Position numbers and translations under genes: made by a program | Shown: one piece after another, positions 5,640-29,634 of the stretch | How positions within the stretch are numbered: the stretch's first letter is position 1 | Layout of the letters: every line of letters begins with the position of its first letter | Notes under the pieces: generated by a model | What the model was told of the DNA's origin: nothing | Database searches by the model: none | What the model saw: only the letters and a program-made list of their open reading frames with translations | DNA from: Candidatus Saccharimonadota bacterium | Lineage (GTDB): Bacteria; Bacillota_I; Bacilli_A; Mycoplasmatales; Hepatoplasmataceae | DNA: 32,000 nt | Direction of reading: 5' to 3' | Assembly: GCF_000582535.1 (NCBI RefSeq) | Contig: NZ_CP006932.1 | Location: 180,001-212,000, forward strand

Positions 5640-6551
5640 ATGCAAATAATTGATTTTAATATTAAAGATAATAAATTAGAAAAAAATAATGAAAGAATAA
5701 TTATATTAGGAAAATTTAATACTCTTCATTTAGGTCATCAAAAATTATTAAATAAAGCTATTGAACTTAAAAATAAAACAAATAAAGAATTAATAATTAT
5801 GGTTTATCCTGATTTTAATGGATTTAATAAAAAGCAAATAAAAAATATTTTACCCTTAGAAGAAAGAATTAAAATTTTTAAAAAATATAATGTTGATTAT
5901 CTTTTGCTTTTTGAGAAAAATGCAAAAAATTATCAAATTACAAGAGAAAAATTTATCAAATATTTAAAGGAAAAATTAAATGTTACGGATGTTTTCGTAG
6001 GAGAAAATTTTTCATTTGGTAAAAATAAATTAGATGATTTAATCTTGCTTAATAATAATTTTAATTTACATTTGATAAAACTTGTATATTATAATAATCA
6101 AATTATTTCAACAAGCTTAATTAAAATGCTTCTTGATGAAGGGGCAATTGAAGATGTTAAAAAATTGCTTGGATTTAATTATTTTTATAGTGGAAAAGTT
6201 GTACATGGAATGGGGATTGGCAAAAAATATAAAACTCCAACAGCAAATGTAAATGTTAATAAAAATTTATATCCCCCAATGCAAGGAATTTATTTAAGTA
6301 AAGTTTTGATCGATAATAAATATTATTATGGAATTACTTCAATATCTAATAATCCAACATTTAAAGAAAGACCTATTACTTTTGAAACCCATATTTTTAA
6401 CTTTGATCAAGATATATATGATCAATTAATTTATGTAGAATTAATAAAATTTATGAGAGAACCAATAAAATTTACATCTATTAAAAAATTATTTGAACAA
6501 ATAGAAATTGATAAAAAAGATGCCATAATGTTTATCAATAAGAAAAAATAA
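5640..6551 (+). CDS. ribF: Bifunctional riboflavin kinase / FAD synthetase
   Basis: 303-aa intact ORF. The N-terminal nucleotidyltransferase motif GKFNTLHLGHQKLL and a C-terminal riboflavin kinase-like region (GKKYKTPTANV...) are present. Conserved position after truB. Confidence 0.9.
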   Translation: MQIIDFNIKDNKLEKNNERIIILGKFNTLHLGHQKLLNKAIELKNKTNKELIIMVYPDFNGFNKKQIKNILPLEERIKIFKKYNVDYLLLFEKNAKNYQITREKFIKYLKEKLNVTDVFVGENFSFGKNKLDDLILLNNNFNLHLIKLVYYNNQIISTSLIKMLLDEGAIEDVKKLLGFNYFYSGKVVHGMGIGKKYKTPTANVNVNKNLYPPMQGIYLSKVLIDNKYYYGITSISNNPTFKERPITFETHIFNFDQDIYDQLIYVELIKFMREPIKFTSIKKLFEQIEIDKKDAIMFINKKK

Positions 6552-6620
6552 CCCCCTTTTATTATAGAAGGGGGCTAAGAATACTTGGCATTTACCTTCT
6601 AAAAATAGAAGGCAAATCAA
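6552..6620 (+). terminator. Two tandem hairpins after ribF; the second is a probable intrinsic terminator
   Basis: Hairpin 1: CCCCCTT 6552-6558 pairs with AAGGGGG 6568-6574. Hairpin 2: CCTTCT 6595-6600 pairs with AGAAGG 6607-6612, extended by 4 further pairs across one mismatch, then a T-rich run (tattctttattttta). Confidence 0.55.
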
Positions 6621-6673
6621 TATTCTTTATTTTTATTTAATTTTCTCAATTTAAATATATTCAATTAATAATT

Positions 6674-6679
6674 TATAAT
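6674..6679 (+). promoter_or_regulatory. Candidate -10 box (TATAAT) 6 nt upstream of the rsgA ATG
   Basis: TATAAT at 6674-6679, then ttttat, then ATG 6686. No SD in between. AT-rich background makes chance matches common. Confidence 0.35.
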
Positions 6680-6685
6680 TTTTAT

Positions 6686-7552
6686 ATGTTAGGAAGAATT
6701 ATTTATTCAAGCGGTGGAAATTATCGTGTCAAAACTAAGGAAGGAATTTTTAATTGTAAACCAATAGGTTTATTTCGTAAAGATAATACAGAATTAATTG
6801 TTGGAGATAAAGTTGAATTAAAATTAAATTATAAAATAGGACAAGAAAATTTAAATATAATTACAAAATTATATGATCGTAAAAATCAATTTATTAGACC
6901 AAAAATTTCAAATATTGATTTTATAATTATAGTTACATCTCTTGTTGAACCAAAATTTAATCATTTCTATTTAAATAAAATGATCACTTTTTTTCAAATT
7001 AAAAAAATAGAACCAATTTTAATTTTTACTAAAATTGATTTAAATAAAAATCAAAGAAATTTAGATTTAATTAAAAAATACGAAGATTTAAATTATAAAA
7101 TATTTAATTTTAATAATTCTTTTCAAAAAAAAGAAAAAGAAAAAATTTTATTTATTTTAAAAAATAAATTTTCTATTTTAACAGGACAAAGTGGAGTAGG
7201 AAAAAGCACAGTTTTAAATTTTTTAAATAGAAATTTAAAATTAAAAACCGGAGAAATATCTTTTGCTCTTAATAGAGGAAAACATACTACTAGGCATTAT
7301 GAAGCATTTGAAATTTATGAAAATTCTTTAATTGTAGATAGTCCTGGGTTTTCAAGTTTTAAATTAGATTTGAGCTTAAATGAAATTTCCAAGAATTTTA
7401 TAAATTTTGCAAAATACTATAAAAATTGTCAATTTAAAAATTGTCTTCATATTAATGAAAAAGAATGTTTTGTTAAAAAAACAGCTGATTCTTTTTTCTA
7501 TAATGATTATTTAAAATTAATAAAAGAAGTAAAAGAAAATAGAAAATTTTAA
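6686..7552 (+). CDS. rsgA: Ribosome small-subunit-dependent GTPase A (RsgA/YjeQ/YloQ)
   Basis: 288-aa intact ORF with N-terminal OB-like GRIIYSSGGNYRV, circularly permuted GTPase motifs (TKIDL ... GQSGVGKST ... DSPGF) and a C-terminal Cys/His cluster (C.F.NC.H..E..C). Confidence 0.9.
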   Translation: MLGRIIYSSGGNYRVKTKEGIFNCKPIGLFRKDNTELIVGDKVELKLNYKIGQENLNIITKLYDRKNQFIRPKISNIDFIIIVTSLVEPKFNHFYLNKMITFFQIKKIEPILIFTKIDLNKNQRNLDLIKKYEDLNYKIFNFNNSFQKKEKEKILFILKNKFSILTGQSGVGKSTVLNFLNRNLKLKTGEISFALNRGKHTTRHYEAFEIYENSLIVDSPGFSSFKLDLSLNEISKNFINFAKYYKNCQFKNCLHINEKECFVKKTADSFFYNDYLKLIKEVKENRKF

Positions 7553-22626: not shown

Positions 22627-23919
<1,293 letters not shown>

Positions 23920-23951
23920 TTAAATTTAAGATTTTAAATTTGTAAAATAGT

Positions 23952-23957
23952 TATAAT
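23952..23957 (+). promoter_or_regulatory. Candidate -10 box (TATAAT) 6 nt upstream of the nfo ATG
   Basis: TATAAT at 23952-23957, then attttt, then ATG 23964. No SD. The spacing is the same as at rsgA. Confidence 0.35.
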
Positions 23958-23963
23958 ATTTTT

Positions 23964-24827
23964 ATGAAAGTAGAAAAGAAACCACTTATTGGTGCTCATA
24001 TCTCCTTTAAAAAAGAAGATCAATTATTAGGTTCAATTCGTGATTTATTAAGAATAAATGCAACTTCAGGGGCTTTTTATATTTCAAATTCTCGTGCATA
24101 TAAGAAAACATTATTATTAGATCAAGAAAAACTAAAAGAAGCAAAAAAATTAGCAAAAGCAAATAATTTTAATATTGAAAATATTATTGTTCATTCCCCT
24201 TTGGTTGGTAATATTGCAAATATTGAAAAAGATCAGATAACATTTAATCTTACAAAGCAGTCTTATTTAAGTGATTTAAAATTAATGGAGAAAATGGGCT
24301 TGAAATTATTTAATTTTCATCCAGGTTCAGCAAAGGATAAAAAACTAGGAATCTTAAAATGTGCTGAAGGAATTAATTATTTAATTGAAAATACAAAAGA
24401 TGATCATACAATTATTTGCATTGAAACAATGATGAAAAAAGGAAATTACATCGGTGCTAATTTTTCAGAAATAAGCGAAATAATTACAAATATAAAAGAT
24501 AAAGAAAGAATCGGTGTAGTAATTGACACTTGTCATATATGAGATGGAGGTTATGATTTAAATAATTTTAATAAAGTTCTTGATGAATTTGATCAAAAAA
24601 TAGGTCTTAAATATTTAAAAGGATTACATATCAATGATTCCAAAAATCCCCTAGGTTCAAATAAAGATCGTCATCAAAACATCGGAAAAGGATATATAGG
24701 ATTAAGCAATCTAAAAAAAATTATTTTTCATCCAAAAATAATTAATCTTCCAAAAGCACTAGAAACTCCTTATGGAAAAGATGATTTCAAAAGATGAAAA
24801 GAAGAAATTGATCTTTTATTAAATTAA
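23964..24827 (+). CDS. nfo: Endonuclease IV (AP endonuclease)
   Basis: ORF 23964-24542 continues through TGAs to TAA 24825-24827. [39 protein letters not shown] and DRHQNIG are Nfo metal-site motifs. Confidence 0.92.
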
Positions 24828-24863
24828 AAATTTATAAAAGATTTTAAGAAGGAAGTGAATATT

Positions 24864-25886
24864 ATGAATGCAGAAAACAATAATTTAGAATTAAATAAGA
24901 ATGAAGATATTTATAACGAAGAGCTGCTTTTTCAAACAGTAGAAAAATACTTTGGTGTAGACAAACTTTATTCTTATAATTTAAGTTTTTTAATTGGAAA
25001 TGATTTTTTTAAATTAGTAGAAGGATATGATTATGAAGATTTTTATCAAAAATTAAAAAAAACAAAAGCTTATAAAAGAAAAAAAACAACAATTAAAAAT
25101 TTAGATAAATTATCAAAAAAAATTGGAGCAGAGTTTGATATTAATCTTACAGAAGGATTATTGCAATTAAATAAAAAAAAGAAATATTTTGATTTTGATA
25201 ATAAAAGAGCAAATATAAGAGAACTTTATAATCCCTTTTTAAAAATTATCAATAATTATTTAGAAAATAGTTTTCAAAATGAAGTTAATATTTTAACAAT
25301 AGATTTTAGTAATTTTTTTGAAAATTTATTTACTCCAAGTCGGTTTTTATTAAAAAAATATAATTTTAATAAAAAAGAGCAAGATGAGCTTATTAAAAAA
25401 ATTAATCTTTATAAAATATTTGGTGATATTGAAGATCCAAAAGAAATCAAATTACCGAAGGAATTTAAGAAAAATTATTTGCCTTTTTTTGCTTTTGATC
25501 AATTAAGAATATTTACAAATAAAATAAATGAAAAAAATTCTGTCCTTGTTGTATTTGGTTATGATTTTTCGGATCAATATTTAAATAATTTACTTCTAGA
25601 TTTAAAGGATAATAAATCAATAAAAATATTATTACTTGTTGATCAAAAAAATAAAGAACAAGAGATAATATATCAATTTTTACAATTTCAAAATACTTTT
25701 TTATTTAAATTTATTGATTATACAAAAAGTGATTATTTGAATAATTTAGAAGAAATCTTATATTCAAAAATTTCTTTTTTAAGAAGCAAAAAAGATATCA
25801 GTAATTTAGTAGAAAAAGAGCAAAAAAAGACAAAAACAAATAGAAAAAATTCAACAAAAAAAGGGAAAAACAAGAAAAATGAATAA
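24864..25886 (+). CDS. Hypothetical protein with SIR2_2-like (defence-type SIR2) motif layout, predicted catalytically degenerate
   Basis: Intact ORF. ATG 24864 lies 8 nt after AAGGAAG; the track uses GTG 24855. The motif order recalls SIR2-like proteins: FLIGNDF (24987-25007), NILTIDFSNFFENLF (from 25287), LYKIFGDIEDP (from 25407) and VLVVFGYDFSDQYLNNLL (from 25545). The C-terminus is a basic tail. The protein has no His, Cys or Trp. Confidence 0.5.
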   Translation: MNAENNNLELNKNEDIYNEELLFQTVEKYFGVDKLYSYNLSFLIGNDFFKLVEGYDYEDFYQKLKKTKAYKRKKTTIKNLDKLSKKIGAEFDINLTEGLLQLNKKKKYFDFDNKRANIRELYNPFLKIINNYLENSFQNEVNILTIDFSNFFENLFTPSRFLLKKYNFNKKEQDELIKKINLYKIFGDIEDPKEIKLPKEFKKNYLPFFAFDQLRIFTNKINEKNSVLVVFGYDFSDQYLNNLLLDLKDNKSIKILLLVDQKNKEQEIIYQFLQFQNTFLFKFIDYTKSDYLNNLEEILYSKISFLRSKKDISNLVEKEQKKTKTNRKNSTKKGKNKKNE

Positions 25887-27780
25887 TTTAGATAATTACT
25901 TTTTTGGTGTAATTAGTTTTACAAAAGGAAATGAAGTTATTGTTAAAAGCAAAAAAGAGAAAATTTTGGAAAGAGATTATATAATTGGATCTGATCAACT
26001 TTTTTTTGCACCAAAAATAGATCGTTTTATTAAATTATTATTTAATAATCAAATATTTATTTATAAGATTTTTCAAAGATCGGAAGAGCAAAATAATTAT
26101 TTATATCATGGATATTATATTGGAAGAATTTTAAATAATCAACTTATTAAAAATGAAACTTTTATTCCTTCTTTAAATCAAAAAGTTTCATTAATTTCAA
26201 TAAAAGAATTAAAAATATTTGATCAAGATTTCTCTGATAATAATTTAAAAATAAAAAATATTGCAAAGACTTTAGATACAAAAAACCAAATTGATTTAAA
26301 TTTAAATTTCTTTTCCTTTAATAATTTATTAATAGGTAAAAAAGATTCTGGTAAAAGTAACACAATAAAAAATTTTTACTTAAGTTTATTTAATCAATAC
26401 TTAAAAAATTTTAATCAAACTTTCCATAAATTTGTTTTTTTTGATCTTAAAAATCAATATTTTAATTTTTTCAAAAATAACTTAAATTCTTTTTTATTAG
26501 GACAATTAAAAGAAATTAATTTAAAAGAAAAATTATTAGAAAAAGACAGTCCATTTTTTAATTTTAAAAAATTAGGAAGAAAAGAAAAAGCTTTTCTTTT
26601 TGATATTACAAATAAAGAAGAGAGATATTTGCTTGATAATTTCTTTCTATGAATTGAAGATGTAAAACAAATCTCTTTTATAAACATTATAAATAAAGCA
26701 ATATTAAAGCAAGATGGTTTTGTAATTATTAAAAATTTTCTTTTAAACTTAGTAAAAATTTCTATCAAAGATCAAAATCTTAAATTTAATCATTATTTAA
26801 TTATTTTGAAAGAAATTTTGGATAAATTAAGTTTAATTAATGATAATTTTTATTTAAATGATATTTACAATCAATATTATGATTTAATTGAAAAAGAAAA
26901 TCAACAAAAAATTATTTTTGAAAAAAAAGGAAATAATTTAATTTTTGAAAAAGAATATTTTTCAACTTTTTTAGATTTAATAAGAGAAAAATATTTAAAT
27001 GGTGATAGCAATATTATTGAAAAATTTAATAATTTTATTGCTTCAGACTGAAATTCATTACTTAATTTATTTCAATTACAAAATATAATTGATAATAATT
27101 ACCAAAAAATTATTTTTGAAAATTTTATAAATAAATTAAATTTGAAAAAGGATAATGAAAATTATTTAATTGTAAAACAATTTGCTTTATCTTTAAAAAA
27201 TGGTGAAAAAAGAAATAGTATTTTAGATTTATTAGAAAAAAATAATTTAATTATTTTTACTTTTGATAATCTTTCTTCTAAAATTGAGCAAAGATTAATT
27301 TATCTTTTTATTAAGCTTTTAACTTTTGATAATTGCTTAGATTTACCAGAAGAAAAAAAATATTTAAATATTGTATTAGATGATTTTGATAAATGATTTA
27401 AATTATCACTTATTGATAAAAGTTTAGATTTAGATTTACTTGAGAAATTAATTTCTCAACAAGAGCAATATAAAACTTTTTTTACAATTTCTGTTGAAAA
27501 TGTAAATCTTTTACGAGAAAAAATGTTCATTGATTTTGATAATTTTTTAATTCATAATCTTTTAGATCAAGAAGAATTTGAATTAACTACCCATTATCTA
27601 AAAAAAATAAATGAACATCAAATTTATCAAACTTTTAATTTTGAAGATACAGAATTATTACTTTATGGAAAATCATTTAAAAGAGTCTATCCTGTAAAAT
27701 TAATTAATTATAATGATAAAAAAATAATTACAAATCAATCAGAAAAAGTTATATTTAATATCTTGAATCAAAAAAGTTAA
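25879..27780 (+). CDS. HerA/DUF87-like P-loop ATPase (633 aa)
   Basis: Four track ORFs (25879, 26806, 27142, 27523) share one frame and join through three TGA codons. The start overlaps the upstream stop by 8 nt (ATGAATAA). The N-terminus is barrel-like (GVISFTKGNEVIV...). Walker A is GKKDSGKS at 26335-26358, preceded by NLLI. A Walker-B-like NIVLDDFD lies at 27367-27390. Confidence 0.55.
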
Positions 27781-27819
27781 TCAATAAATAATAAATTTTG
27801 TATAATTATCATTAGATTT

Positions 27820-27854
27820 AGAAAATGAAACATAAAGTATCATTTTCTTTTTTT
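27820..27854 (+). terminator. Intrinsic terminator after the nfo / SIR2-like / HerA-like unit
   Basis: AGAAAATGA (27820-27828), an 11-nt loop, TCATTTTCT (27840-27848), then T6 (27849-27854). Confidence 0.7.
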
Positions 27855-27879
27855 ATTAAAAGTAAGGGATTAATTTATA

Positions 27880-29634
27880 GTGAAAAAAAAATTTAGAAAT
27901 ATATTTTTATCATCATTATTTTTATTTTCGGGACAAGCAATAATTTATCTCCAAATATCAAATAATCAAAAAAATCAACAATATAATTTAGAAGATAGTA
28001 ATAAAACAAATGTTATTACTGATCAAAATATTAAAAAAGGATATCAATTTGATGAAGGAGAAGCTGCAGCAGTTACAACAGATCAGAACGGATATGATCA
28101 TTTGTATATGTGAGGAGATAATAGTAATTACCAATTAGGACTTCCTTATATAAATTCATATTCAAAATCTGATAATATTCAAAATGAAAATATAAATAAG
28201 AGAAATTATTATTATATCCCTACAGAAGTAAATTATATTAAAGAGCAAAAAGGAAGAATAGAAGACTTAAAATCAACAAAATACAATACAATTTTAACTT
28301 TTGTTGATCAAGAACAAAATTACCATCTTTATATTTATGGCTCAAATATTAATGGTTTACTTACTAAGCAAGATTTATCTTTAAATAGTAAAAATAGTCC
28401 AATTATTATTGATATTCCAAGTAATTTAAAAATTGCAGATATTGAACTTACAGATGATAATGCTTATCTTTTACTTGATGAAAAAACAGGTGATAAACAA
28501 TATTTATATAGTTGAGGTAAAAATGATTATGGACAATTGGGATTAGGATATAGTGACAATAAAATTCATAAAAATCCCACTGTTTCTAAATATATAAATG
28601 GTAAAACAAATGAGAATCTTTATGTAAATTCAATTTATGCAGAAAATGATGCTTTATATTTATTAGTACAAAATAGTAATGAAAATGAATATCAAACAAT
28701 TTATAGTTTGGGTTCAAATAAAAATGGACAATTAGGTTTAAATTCTTCAAATTATGATGGTAAAAATCCTGTTCCAACTGAAATACCTTTTTTTGCAAGG
28801 GAAAAAGCACAGGAAATAATTTTTATTGATGGTAATAATCATCAAGGAATGTATACAGAATTTATAGAAAATGATCAAACTTATCTTGTCGGATGAGGAA
28901 ATAATAATAGAAAACAATTAATAAATATTGATGATAAAAATATAGATCAACCAACAGCAATATTTGATCAAGAACAAAATTTTATAATAGGAGATAAAGG
29001 CGATCCGCTTTTTGATTCAAATACAAATCAATTGCTTTTATCTGATTTTGGATATGAACAATCTTATTTAATTCTAGAAGAAGGAACATTAATAGATGAA
29101 AAATTTAATGTTGAAAGAATTGTAATTGAAGGATGAGGTTTAAATGCTCATAATAGTTTGGGTGGAAATAATGTCGGTCAAATTAATGAACCAATAGAAA
29201 TAAACAGTTTTTTAATTGAAAATTATAATGGATATCAAATTAAAAATATTTCTACAGGAAGTCATAGTACTGATATTTTAATTGAAAACAATCAACAAAA
29301 TCAAAATTTATATACTTGAGGATATAATCAAACTGGACAATTAGGAAATGGAGAAGAAGCAACTTTTGCATCACCTACTACTTCAAATCTTTTCTTATCT
29401 ATGCAAACTTCAAAAGAAGTAATTAGTAATAATATTGCATATCAATTATCTCTTGCAATTTTTATTGTAATTATAATTATTTTAATATTGGTACTTATTA
29501 GCTTATATTTAAGTATTAGAAGATATCGTAAAGTATCTTGATCAGTGCAAACTCAAAAAAACGAAGATGAATTAAAAGAACAAGAATTAGTAAAAGAATT
29601 AACAACACAAAATTTAGATTTAAACTTAGATTAA
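27880..29634 (+). CDS. Membrane-anchored RCC1-repeat (seven-bladed beta-propeller) protein
   Basis: GTG 27880. ORFs 27880 and 28537 and the gaps share a frame and join through TGAs, ending at TAA 29632-29634 (584 aa). Seven RCC1-type signatures: WGDNSNYQLG (28111), YGSNINGLL (28336), WGKNDYGQLG (28513), LGSNKNGQLG (28708), WGNNNRKQL (28894), WGLNAHNSLG (29134), WGYNQTGQLG (29317). The N-terminus is hydrophobic (no Cys). A C-terminal TM segment at 29434-29516 is followed by RRYRK. Confidence 0.75.

What the first reader, a model, noticed from the sequence alone, without database searches (positions are those of the whole stretch)
24987..25574. The SIR2-like partner contains no histidine, and every recalled NAD-site motif is substituted
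Seen in sequence: the 343-aa translation has no His, Cys or Trp. Positions that resemble the SIR2-like consensus motifs (recalled from memory) are changed. The Gly-rich F-L-x-G-A-G-x-S motif reads FLIGNDF (GND at 24996-25004). The I-I-T-T-N-Y-D-x-L-L-E motif reads ILTIDFSNFFE (Asp at 25302-25304 where the catalytic Asn is expected). The K-L-H-G-S motif reads KIFGD (Phe at 25419-25421 where the catalytic His is expected). The structural G-Y-S-x-x-D motif survives as GYDFSD. Established knowledge: characterised SIR2-family deacylases and NADases use a conserved catalytic His. Inference: if the fold assignment holds, this is a pseudo-enzyme (scaffold or sensor) or uses a different chemistry. That would make it a distinct, undescribed variant of the SIR2-HerA architecture rather than a standard NAD-depleting system.
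Basis: partly seen in the sequence, partly recalled or inferred. Interest (0 to 1): 0.7.

Follow-up and report, generated by a model that had tools for sequence, protein, structure and literature searches.

The report
Catalytically dead SIR2-HerA pair, conserved
A tiny-genome isopod gut symbiont (Hepatoplasma) keeps a two-gene relative of the SIR2-HerA anti-phage system in which both proteins have lost their invariant catalytic residues, yet both genes are as well conserved as housekeeping genes, which suggests the pair now does a different, non-NAD-destroying job.

Summary
The window is Candidatus Hepatoplasma crinochetorum (Mollicutes, TGA=Trp). The gene at 24864-25886 encodes a 340-aa SIR2_2-family protein with no His, Cys or Trp. 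Pfam scores it above threshold, and its best structural matches are the SIR2 subunits of solved SIR2-HerA complexes. In 62 sequence-selected and 66 HerA-selected homologues the catalytic Asn and His and the NAD-loop Gly are invariant. Hepatoplasma has D147, F186 and D47 at those positions, and also replaces S49, D149, S188, W191 and H239.

The nearest relatives keep every canonical residue. These are Ca. Tyloplasma litorale and an unnamed AT-rich contig, 31-35% identical.

The downstream partner (25879-27780) is a full-length HerA homologue that is one 633-aa gene only under code 4. It has also lost invariant ATPase residues (DEAH to DDFD, EGRKF to QxxxY, SQRP to VENV) but keeps the P-loop.

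Both genes are intact, overlap by 8 nt and sit in the same core-genome position in four Hepatoplasma lineages. Both are under purifying selection (omega 0.13-0.29).

The best reading is a selectively maintained pseudo-enzyme pair descended from SIR2-HerA. Its present function is unknown.

The parts
24864..25886 (+). SIR2-like gene (340 aa from ATG; an alternative GTG lies at 24855). It belongs to the SIR2_2 family and has no His, Cys or Trp.
   Evidence: Omega is 0.13-0.24 against orthologues.
24996..25004 (+). Remnant of the NAD pyrophosphate-binding Gly-rich loop. It reads G45-N46-D47 where the family has G-[SAC]-G, and is followed by F49 where the sequence-selected set has Ser.
   Evidence: G47 and S49 are each 62/62 in homologues. 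G47 63/63. In that MAFFT run the column aligned to F49 reads L/A, so the Ser is not recovered at that column. SaSir2 S55 binds the ADPR pyrophosphate.
25296..25310 (+). T145-I146-D147-F148-S149, replacing the family motif T-T-N-Y-D. The catalytic Asn is now Asp and the conserved Asp is now Ser.
   Evidence: N 62/62 and 64/64; D 62/62 and 65/65. The literature residues are N226 in SaSir2 and N163/D165 in PsSIR2.
25413..25436 (+). K184-I-F186-G-D188-I-E-D191, replacing K-[IL]-H-G-S-x-x-W. The catalytic His is now Phe.
   Evidence: H 62/62 and 66/66; S188 62/62; W191 62/62. H287A in SaSir2 abolishes NADase.
25557..25580 (+). G232-Y-D234-F-S-D237-Q-Y239, replacing G-[FY]-S-F-x-D-E-H. G232 and D237 are kept; S234 became D and H239 became Y.
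25879..25886 (+). 8-nt overlap between the SIR2-like stop (TAA) and the partner's ATG, suggesting translational coupling. It is conserved in the orthologous loci.
   Evidence: and the gene coordinates.
25879..27780 (+). HerA-like partner gene. It encodes 633 aa under code 4, with three in-frame TGA=Trp codons at 26650-26652, 27049-27051 and 27394-27396. Under code 11 it appears as four ORFs.
   Evidence: hhalign against canonical HerA gives prob 97.6%, E=3.1e-12 over 549 columns. Omega is 0.26-0.29.
26335..26364 (+). Partner Walker A / P-loop, G153-K-K-D-S-G-K159-S-N-T. The GxxxxGK[ST] pattern is retained.
26443..26445 (+). Partner D189. This Asp is invariant in HerA (70/70) and lies 30 residues after the Walker A Lys, the same spacing as K188/D218 in E. 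coli type III HerA, where D218 is the nickase determinant.
   Evidence: The equivalence is inferred, not shown.
27370..27393 (+). Partner degenerate Walker B, I-V-L-D501-D502-F-D-K, replacing h-h-h-D-E-A-H-N. The catalytic Glu is now Asp.
   Evidence: D, E, A and H are each 70/70 in canonical HerA..
27457..27507 (+). Partner Q527-Q-E-Q-Y...T536-I-S-V-E-N-V-N543, replacing E-G-R-K-F...T-I-S-S-Q-R-P-N. Both invariant Arg residues and the Gln are lost.
   Evidence: each residue is 70/70 in canonical HerA..

Best explanation
This is a vertically inherited, selectively maintained derivative of a SIR2-HerA two-gene system in which the enzymatic cores of both proteins have been dismantled.

Shown:
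- The 340-aa protein is a SIR2_2 Rossmann-fold protein of the SIR2-HerA type, and its partner is a full-length HerA homologue.
- The SIR2-like protein has lost the NAD pyrophosphate loop (GxGxS to GNDFF), the catalytic Asn/Asp/His (now D147/S149/F186) and further invariant pocket residues.
- The partner keeps its P-loop but has lost the Walker-B Glu, the following Ala-His, and both invariant Arg residues.
- Both genes are intact and overlap by 8 nt. They sit in the same core-genome position and are under purifying selection in four Hepatoplasma lineages.
- The sister-type relatives (Tyloplasma, L007) keep every catalytic residue.

Inferred:
- The SIR2-like protein can no longer bind or hydrolyse NAD+. 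It acts as a non-catalytic structural or regulatory subunit (a pseudo-enzyme) assembled on a HerA-derived ring.
- That ring can probably still bind nucleotide but hydrolyses it poorly or not at all.
- Any output of the complex therefore does not go through NAD+ depletion.
- My preferred candidate is a DNA-directed activity of the HerA-like subunit, held in check by the SIR2-like subunit. The precedent is E. coli type III, where Sir2 represses an intrinsic HerA nickase that depends on an Asp 30 residues after the P-loop Lys. Hepatoplasma retains such an Asp (D189).

The confidence given (0.7) is for the core claim: a conserved, non-NADase pseudo-enzyme pair derived from SIR2-HerA. For the specific nickase-control output my confidence is only about 0.25.
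For: Family and fold:
- Pfam SIR2_2 scores 32.2 bits against GA 24.5.
- AF2 with a 66-sequence alignment gives pTM 0.65. The Foldseek top 30 hits are all SIR2 chains of SIR2-HerA complexes, best E=1.4e-7.
- Strand ends in the model (39-44, 140-145, 179-184, 226-231) lie directly before the replaced residues, which is the Rossmann nucleotide crevice.

Residue loss:
- Searches cover 62 homologues; one search covers 66 SIR2 partners of HerA-selected loci. No other sequence lacks the Asn or the His.

Partner:
- hhalign gives prob 97.6%, E=3e-12, full length.
- Motif tables against 70 HerA proteins are.
- The canonical relatives have the same SIR2+DUF87 architecture and sizes.

Selection and retention:
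- Omega is 0.13/0.24 for the SIR2-like gene and 0.29/0.26 for the partner, against 0.13-0.33 for purB, nfo, pheS and pheT.
- Synteny is identical in L001, L002 and L088.
- The substitutions are identical in 5 orthologues.

Polarity:
- The SIR2-like protein forms an NJ clade with Tyloplasma and L007.
- The Hepatoplasma HerA branch is accelerated: distance to the canonical set is 0.91, against 0.77.

Nickase precedent and ATP-binding-only gating: PMC13434337.
Against: - No activity has been measured. Loss of NADase and ATPase is inferred from residue identity.
- Asp in place of the Walker-B Glu could retain some hydrolysis.
- The AF2 model is only moderately confident (mean pLDDT 60.5). It was guided by canonical homologues, and I had no coordinates, so the pocket geometry could not be inspected.
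- The D189=D218 equivalence rests on spacing and invariance only.
- The replaced positions are not demonstrably more constrained than the rest of the core (11/12 invariant against a 79% background, P=0.25). A newly selected site is therefore not shown.
- The actual cellular role is unknown. A housekeeping or host-interaction role is as compatible with the core-genome location as a defence role.
Confidence: 0.7

Rival explanations
1. Neo-enzyme. The former NAD pocket has been rebuilt into an acidic site that does different chemistry, for example a metal-dependent phosphodiesterase or nuclease, or binding of a basic ligand. On this reading the SIR2-like protein is an active effector of a new kind.
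For: - Five of the replacements introduce Asp at pocket positions (G47D, N147D, S188D, W191D/N, S234D), next to the retained E153 and D237. All are fixed in four lineages.
- The gene has one of the lowest omega values in the region.
- SIR2 of canonical SIR2-HerA complexes has been reported to show nuclease activity when bound to HerA (PMC11472057).
Against: - No extra constraint on these positions is demonstrable.
- No known metal-site motif was recognised, and no family or PDB hit other than SIR2 was found.
Confidence: 0.15
2. Decaying relic. A defence system inactivated by drift in a small, bottlenecked symbiont genome, not yet deleted and without function.
For: - Reduced genomes accumulate inactivating substitutions.
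- Both enzymes are hit at once.
- The Hepatoplasma HerA branch is accelerated.
Against: - The ORFs are intact in five genomes from four lineages that have diverged to dS about 0.6-1.0.
- Omega is 0.13-0.29, similar to purB, nfo and pheST.
- The 8-nt overlap and the synteny are preserved.
- Genomes of about 0.6 Mb delete useless DNA quickly (established knowledge).
Confidence: 0.05
3. Still an NAD+-depleting SIR2-HerA system that uses non-canonical residues.
For: - The fold, gene order and sizes match SIR2-HerA.
- Asp can sometimes substitute for Asn in ribose contacts.
Against: - Every invariant NAD-contacting or catalytic position is changed at once, including the Gly of the pyrophosphate loop (now Asp) and the His whose single mutation abolishes activity.
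- There is no His anywhere in the protein to compensate.
Confidence: 0.03
4. Not a SIR2-fold protein at all: a compositionally biased protein with chance motif resemblance.
For: - The protein is very Lys/Asn/Leu-rich.
- The first AF2 model failed (pLDDT 35).
- PDB sequence searches were not significant.
Against: - The Pfam hit is above the gathering score.
- It is 31-35% identical to canonical SIR2 proteins, with collinear motifs.
- Foldseek hits have probability 1.00.
- The partner is a HerA homologue.
Confidence: 0.01

Closest known systems
SIR2-HerA (Nezha) anti-phage systems of E. coli, Paenibacillus sp. 453MF and S. aureus (PDB 8SUB/8SU9/8UAE/8J4U, 8W9L/8WLD, 8YHX)
   Same: - A two-gene operon with a SIR2_2 protein of about 340-400 aa followed by a HerA of about 560-700 aa.
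- These give the best structural matches for the SIR2-like protein.
- The HerA family matches by profile.
- The P-loop is retained.
   Different: - These systems need the SIR2 Asn/His and the HerA Walker A Lys, and they act by NAD+ depletion.
- Hepatoplasma lacks the Asn, the His, the Gly-rich loop, the Walker-B Glu and the Arg residues.
- It sits in a core syntenic position rather than a defence island.
- Pfam DUF87 and the PADLOC HerA models do not recognise its partner.
SIR2 + HerA pair of Candidatus Tyloplasma litorale (BDU67727.1 and neighbour; L006), and the unnamed AT-rich contig L007
   Same: - These are the nearest relatives: 31-35% identity, one NJ clade, code 4 and about 20-24% GC.
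- Both come from AT-rich, code-4 sources. Tyloplasma is an isopod-associated member of the Hepatoplasmataceae.
- Gene order and sizes are the same.
   Different: - They keep all canonical residues in both proteins (GSG, TPNYD, KPHGD; GNTGSGKSNT, LDEAHN, EGRKF, SQRP).
- The Tyloplasma pair lies beside restriction-modification genes, a typical defence neighbourhood.
E. coli type III Sir2-HerA (PMC13434337)
   Same: It is a precedent for the mechanism I propose. Sir2 represses an intrinsic HerA nickase, ATP binding without hydrolysis gates the complex, and the nickase needs an Asp 30 residues after the P-loop Lys. Hepatoplasma has K159 and D189 at the same spacing.
   Different: - Type III still uses the Sir2 NADase as its final effector and the HerA ATPase to relieve the ATP checkpoint. 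Both are apparently unavailable here.
- The residue equivalence is not verified by alignment to the type III sequence.
Other SIR2_2 NADases: ThsA (Thoeris), DSR2 and human FAM118A/B
   Same: They share the SIR2_2 Rossmann fold without a zinc module, and appear as lower-ranked structural hits.
   Different: All retain the Asn/His dyad, and mutating it abolishes activity (for FAM118; DSR2 H171A entries appear). Their partner domains also differ.
Immune NADase domains reused as non-catalytic scaffolds (many eukaryotic TIR domains), and catalytically inactive long-B pAgo systems
   Same: The concept is the same: an immune enzyme fold kept for assembly or sensing after loss of catalysis (noted in PMC12700824, and PMC10620215).
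   Different: The folds and lineages differ. For SIR2-HerA no such natural case turned up in my literature search.

Membership tests
SIR2_2 (PF13289) SIR2-like domain family | Sequence match to the family profile above the curated threshold | tested here: met
   32.2 bits against GA 24.5, residues 143-263. NCBIfam SIR2_antiphage scores only 20.6 against 500, so the protein is not an equivalog.
SIR2_2 (PF13289) SIR2-like domain family | Rossmann-type SIR2 fold | tested here: met
   AF2 gives pTM 0.65. Foldseek returns 48 PDB hits with E<=1e-3, and those listed (top 50) are SIR2 chains of SIR2-HerA complexes plus DSR2, FAM118B and ThsA.
SIR2_2 NADases | Catalytic Asn and His (the TTN-Y-D and K-x-H-G motifs) | tested here: not met
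   D147 and F186 occupy columns where 62/62 and 64-66/66 homologues have N and H.
SIR2_2 NADases | Gly-rich NAD pyrophosphate loop G-x-G-x-S | tested here: not met
   The loop reads G45-N-D47-F-F49. G47 and S49 are invariant in the homologues, and G47 is 63/63.
SIR2_2 NADases | NAD+ hydrolysis | not testable with these tools
   This needs an epsilon-NAD or HPLC assay on purified protein, with and without the partner.
SIR2-HerA (Nezha) defence system | A SIR2 gene directly followed by a co-oriented HerA-family ATPase gene | tested here: met
   The genes overlap by 8 nt. The partner is homologous to HerA over its full length (hhalign 97.6%, E=3e-12). The architecture matches L003-L007.
SIR2-HerA (Nezha) defence system | HerA Walker A (P-loop Lys) | tested here: met
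   GKKDSGK159SNT, conserved in 5 orthologues.
SIR2-HerA (Nezha) defence system | HerA Walker B D-E with the catalytic Glu, and conserved Arg residues (EGRKF, SQRP) | tested here: not met
   The motifs read D-D-F-D, Q-x-x-x-Y and V/I-E-N-V at columns that are 70/70 invariant in canonical HerA.
SIR2-HerA (Nezha) defence system | Recognition by the HerA/DUF87 profile or defence-system models | tested here: not met
   The partner has no Pfam hit. PADLOC gives only a weak mad8 hit, E=0.003. The canonical-motif Tyloplasma partner also lacks a Pfam hit, so AT bias contributes to this failure.
SIR2-HerA (Nezha) defence system | Location among defence or mobile genes, with patchy distribution | tested here: not met
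   The position is fixed between nfo and an RCC1-like gene in four Hepatoplasma lineages. Compare the Yersinia pair beside CBASS and integrases and the Tyloplasma pair beside R-M genes.
SIR2-HerA (Nezha) defence system | Protection against phage through NAD+ depletion | not testable with these tools
   This needs phage challenge and NAD+ measurement in a suitable host.

The most novel reading that the evidence does not exclude
A complete abortive-infection machine (SIR2-HerA) has been exapted in a minimal-genome animal symbiont into a core-genome complex that needs neither NAD+ hydrolysis nor ATP hydrolysis. The former NAD pocket has been rebuilt into a conserved acidic site with a new ligand or chemistry. 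The complex might, for example, act as a nucleotide-gated DNA nickase or DNA-binding machine, or as a host-interaction scaffold. This would be the first natural 'double pseudo-enzyme' descendant of a bacterial NADase immune system.
Probability: 0.3. Interest if true: 0.75.

Novelty: new variant of a known kind. Interest (0 to 1): 0.58.

Why it matters
SIR2-HerA is understood as an NAD+-depleting abortive-infection system in which both enzymatic activities are required. Here is a natural lineage in which both catalytic centres are gone, yet the pair is kept under housekeeping-level constraint in a 0.6-Mb genome.

That gives a natural separation-of-function experiment. It asks what the SIR2-HerA assembly can do without NADase and ATPase, whether that is scaffolding, nucleotide sensing or DNA nicking.

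The canonical Tyloplasma pair offers a close active-versus-dead comparison for reversion mutagenesis and structural work.

The locus also shows a practical blind spot. Standard HerA and defence models, and code-11 ORF calling, miss these AT-rich Mollicutes systems altogether.

Tried and rejected
- AF2 with only the four Hepatoplasma sequences gave pLDDT 35 and was unusable. It was redone with 66 sequences.
- PDB sequence searches with the SIR2-like protein or its profile gave only a sub-threshold hit to PsSIR2 8w9l. The partner profile gave nothing.
- Direct phmmer of the partner against the Tyloplasma/L007 HerA was not significant, because composition-bias correction removed the signal. Profile-profile hhalign was needed.
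- The exhaustive representative search found only four distant relatives. No intermediate, half-degenerate form exists in the searched collections.
- I tested whether the replaced positions are more conserved than the background. They are not (P=0.25), so I make no claim of a positively selected new site.
- The promoter and terminator scan is uninformative at about 20% GC: 34 sites against 43 expected, and no terminators.
- Placement of the Hepatoplasma partner in the HerA NJ tree was unresolved because distances are saturated at about 0.9.
- Rfam, tRNA and repeat scans of the locus found nothing relevant.
- The hypothesis that 'no Trp' was an artefact of reading TGA as stop was checked and rejected. 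The gene has no in-frame TGA.
Full report
**Context and genetic code.** The window has about 20% GC. Under table 11 many genes look fragmented. Under table 4 (TGA=Trp) they become long continuous ORFs: purB, purA, nfo, the gene of interest, and a 633-aa downstream gene. Exact or near-exact protein matches identify the source as Candidatus Hepatoplasma crinochetorum, a Mollicutes symbiont of the isopod hepatopancreas with a genome of about 0.6 Mb.

**Checking the observation.**
- The ORF runs 24855(GTG)/24864(ATG)-25886(TAA).
- It contains no His, Cys or Trp and no in-frame TGA, so code 4 does not change this.
- From the local proteome composition, the chance of zero His in 343 residues is 0.018, of zero Trp 0.056 and of zero Cys 0.29.
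- The AT-rich canonical relatives carry only 2-3 His. The bare count is therefore mildly unusual, and which residues were lost matters more than how many.

**Is it SIR2?** Yes.
- Pfam SIR2_2 (PF13289) scores 32.2 bits against a gathering score of 24.5 over residues 143-263. PADLOC SIR2 models hit the C-terminal half.
- An AF2 model built from four sequences failed (pLDDT 35). A second model from 66 sequences reached pTM 0.65, with the Rossmann core at pLDDT 73-89.
[quoted passage not shown] DSR2, FAM118B and ThsA follow.

**Residue mapping.**
- The exhaustive profile search of 1.8 billion representatives found only four distant relatives. The two nearest are 31-35% identical: P0009 from Candidatus Tyloplasma litorale (another isopod-associated member of the Hepatoplasmataceae) and P0010 from an unnamed contig with 20% GC and code 4.
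- They align collinearly with the Hepatoplasma protein and keep the canonical motifs: FIIGSG against FLIGND, ILTPNYDNFIE against ILTIDFSNFFE, KPHGDIE against KIFGDIE, and GYGYND against GYDFSD.
- In a 66-sequence alignment, the 62 non-Hepatoplasma homologues are 100% invariant at G47, S49, F144, N147, D149, H186, S188 and W191, and nearly so at T146 (60/62) and H239 (61/62). Hepatoplasma has D, F, L, D, S, F, D, D/N, I and Y at these positions.
- Framework residues are kept: G45, T145, E153, K184, G187, L228, G232, F235 and D237.
- To avoid selecting through SIR2 itself, I collected 80 loci through their HerA gene and read the upstream SIR2. His was present in 66/66 and Asn in 64/64; the two remaining ORFs are truncated.
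- These are the residues shown experimentally to matter.
  - In SaSir2, N226/H287 are the proposed dyad and H287A abolishes NADase. T225 contacts the ribose and S55 the pyrophosphate of bound ADPR (PMC11514289).
  - In PsSIR2 the putative catalytic residues are N163/D165/H212 (PMC11472057).
  - In human FAM118A/B, mutating the equivalent Asn or His abolishes activity (PMC12700824).
- In the model, the replaced residues follow directly after strands 39-44, 140-145, 179-184 and 226-231. That is the nucleotide crevice of a Rossmann fold.

**The partner.**
- Under code 4, the four table-11 ORFs downstream are one 633-aa gene, 25879-27780, with three TGA Trp codons. It overlaps the SIR2-like stop by 8 nt.
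- It has no Pfam hit.
- The canonical relatives of the SIR2-like protein are all followed by a DUF87/HerA protein of about 600-635 aa. The Tyloplasma gene is followed by a 629-aa protein with the canonical HerA motifs but no Pfam hit on record.
- A profile of five Hepatoplasma partners aligns with four canonical HerA sequences over 549 columns, essentially end to end, with hhalign probability 97.6% and E=3e-12.
- Against 70 canonical HerA proteins, Hepatoplasma keeps the P-loop (GKKxSGK[ST]NT) and an invariant Asp (D189).
- It replaces positions that are 70/70 invariant:
  - Walker B D-E-A-H reads D-D-F-D;
  - E-G-R-K-F reads Q-x-x-x-Y;
  - S-Q-R-P reads V/I-E-N-V;
  - further invariant positions changed are D544, I545, Q552 and H554.
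- From general knowledge of ASCE/FtsK-HerA ATPases, the Walker-B Glu is the catalytic base and one of the two lost Arg residues is the arginine finger. ATP hydrolysis is therefore probably lost or crippled, while nucleotide binding may persist. This is inference.

**Relic or functional gene?**
- The pair is present, intact and overlapping in five genomes representing four lineages: the window strain (Av) plus a 99% variant, H. scabrum, strain Ps, and Logan contig L088.
- It always lies between nfo and an RCC1-like gene, inside a fully syntenic housekeeping block running from pheST, through a membrane protein, purB, purA and nfo, to the DEAD-box helicase, rsmD, coaD and gmk.
- All five SIR2-like orthologues have zero H/C/W and the same substitutions.
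- Nei-Gojobori estimates under code 4:

| Gene | Omega (two comparisons) | Identity |
|---|---|---|
| SIR2-like | 0.13 / 0.24 | 76-79% |
| HerA-like partner | 0.29 / 0.26 | 68% |
| purB | 0.13 / 0.18 | |
| nfo | 0.16 / 0.19 | |
| pheS | 0.23 / 0.30 | |
| pheT | 0.32 / 0.33 | |
| thioredoxin | 0.45-0.46 | |

- dS is about 0.6-1.0, high but not fully saturated. Both genes are thus under purifying selection comparable to housekeeping genes, which excludes a decaying relic.
- The replaced positions are fixed but not demonstrably more constrained than the rest of the core (11/12 against a 79% background, P=0.25). I do not claim a newly selected active site.

**Evolutionary polarity.**
- In an NJ tree the SIR2-like protein forms a clade with Tyloplasma and L007.
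- Those relatives keep all catalytic residues in both proteins. The Tyloplasma pair lies beside an MjaI-type restriction-modification system, a typical defence setting.
- The Yersinia pair lies beside CBASS genes and integrases.
- The Hepatoplasma HerA branch is accelerated: mean distance to canonical HerA is 0.91, against 0.77 for Tyloplasma and L007.
- The simplest history is that an ancestral canonical SIR2-HerA was fixed in the Hepatoplasma core genome, lost both catalytic centres on the stem lineage, and has been conserved in its new state since.

**How it most likely works.**
- Shown: homology, loss of the catalytic and NAD-binding residues, loss of the ATPase catalytic residues, retention of the P-loop, operon coupling, and purifying selection.
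- Inferred: the SIR2-like protein no longer binds or hydrolyses NAD+ and serves as a non-catalytic assembly or regulatory subunit on a HerA-derived ring. That ring still binds nucleotide.
- The E. coli type III system offers a concrete precedent (PMC13434337):
  - Sir2 binding represses an intrinsic HerA nickase;
  - ATP binding without hydrolysis is enough to gate the complex;
  - the nickase needs D218, 30 residues after the P-loop K188.
- Hepatoplasma has K159 and the invariant D189 at the same spacing.
- I therefore favour a nucleotide-gated, DNA-directed activity of the HerA-like subunit, controlled by the dead SIR2-like subunit. I hold the specific output with low confidence.
- The main rival is a neo-enzyme. 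Five replacements put Asp into the old pocket (G47D, N147D, S188D, W191D/N, S234D) beside the retained E153 and D237, which could form a metal or cation site. I could not examine coordinates to test this.

**Comparison with what is known, and novelty.**
- By descent and architecture this is a SIR2-HerA pair.
- By the family's functional definition it fails the tested features: the Asn/His dyad, the NAD loop, the Walker-B Glu and Arg residues, and a defence-island context.
- It should not be filed as a standard NAD-depleting SIR2-HerA system.
- My literature searches found no description of a naturally inactive SIR2 within SIR2-HerA.
- The Hepatoplasmataceae genome paper lists only R-M and CRISPR-Cas as defence systems, and the terms SIR2 and HerA do not occur in its text (PMC10928387).
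- The general concept, an immune NADase fold reused without catalysis, has precedents such as many eukaryotic TIR domains (noted in PMC12700824).
- I rate it a new variant of a known kind, of moderate-to-good interest. The canonical Tyloplasma pair gives a ready active-versus-dead comparison.

Noticed in passing
window 25879-27780 (TGA codons at 26650-26652, 27049-27051 and 27394-27396): The genome uses translation table 4. Under table 11 the HerA-like partner, and also purB and nfo upstream, break into several ORFs, so code-11 annotation or motif reading would misjudge these genes.
   Followed up: yes
window 27370-27507 and 26335-26364: The HerA-like partner has itself lost the invariant ATPase residues (DEAH to DDFD, EGRKF to QxxxY, SQRP to VENV) while keeping the P-loop and D189. 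Both members of the pair are therefore degenerate.
   Followed up: yes
window 27880-29634 (+): The gene immediately downstream encodes an RCC1/WD40_RLD-repeat protein with a hydrophobic N-terminal signal-like segment. It is the fastest-evolving gene in the region (omega 0.45-0.51, 56% identity). A paralogue occurs about 8 kb further on in H. scabrum (L001 20542 onward). It may be a surface or host-interaction protein. Whether it is functionally linked to the pair is unknown.
   Followed up: partly
window 24825-24864: The nfo stop codon lies only about 36 nt upstream of the SIR2-like ATG, and no terminator-like site was found across 23800-28200. The pair may be co-transcribed with purB-purA-nfo. 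An AGGAAG Shine-Dalgarno-like sequence precedes the ATG.
   Followed up: partly
L006 10944-12833 (Ca. Tyloplasma litorale HerA): The Tyloplasma HerA carries a tandem (NSKLKE)x6 peptide repeat inside the helical insertion region. Despite canonical motifs it has no Pfam DUF87 hit on record, so standard defence finders probably miss this system. The Hepatoplasmataceae genome paper does not list it.
   Followed up: partly
L006 4230-14603: In Tyloplasma the canonical SIR2-HerA pair is flanked by a DpnII-type methyltransferase, a PnuC-type NMN transporter (5860-6885) and an N6/N4 methyltransferase plus MjaI endonuclease. An NAD-precursor importer therefore sits about 3 kb (4 genes) upstream of an NADase defence system.
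   Followed up: no
L003 4708-5901 (-): In the metagenomic canonical locus, a divergently oriented AbiH/DUF4917 protein with a faint SIR2_2 hit lies directly upstream of the SIR2-HerA pair. It may be a second defence gene.
   Followed up: no
window 25800-25883 (C-terminus of the SIR2-like protein, aa 313-340): There is a Lys-rich, low-complexity C-terminal tail (KKTKTNRKNSTKKGKNKKNE). It is conserved in character but not in sequence among Hepatoplasma orthologues and is absent from the canonical relatives. It could be a nucleic-acid-binding or disordered tail, and it overlaps the partner's ribosome-binding region.
   Followed up: no
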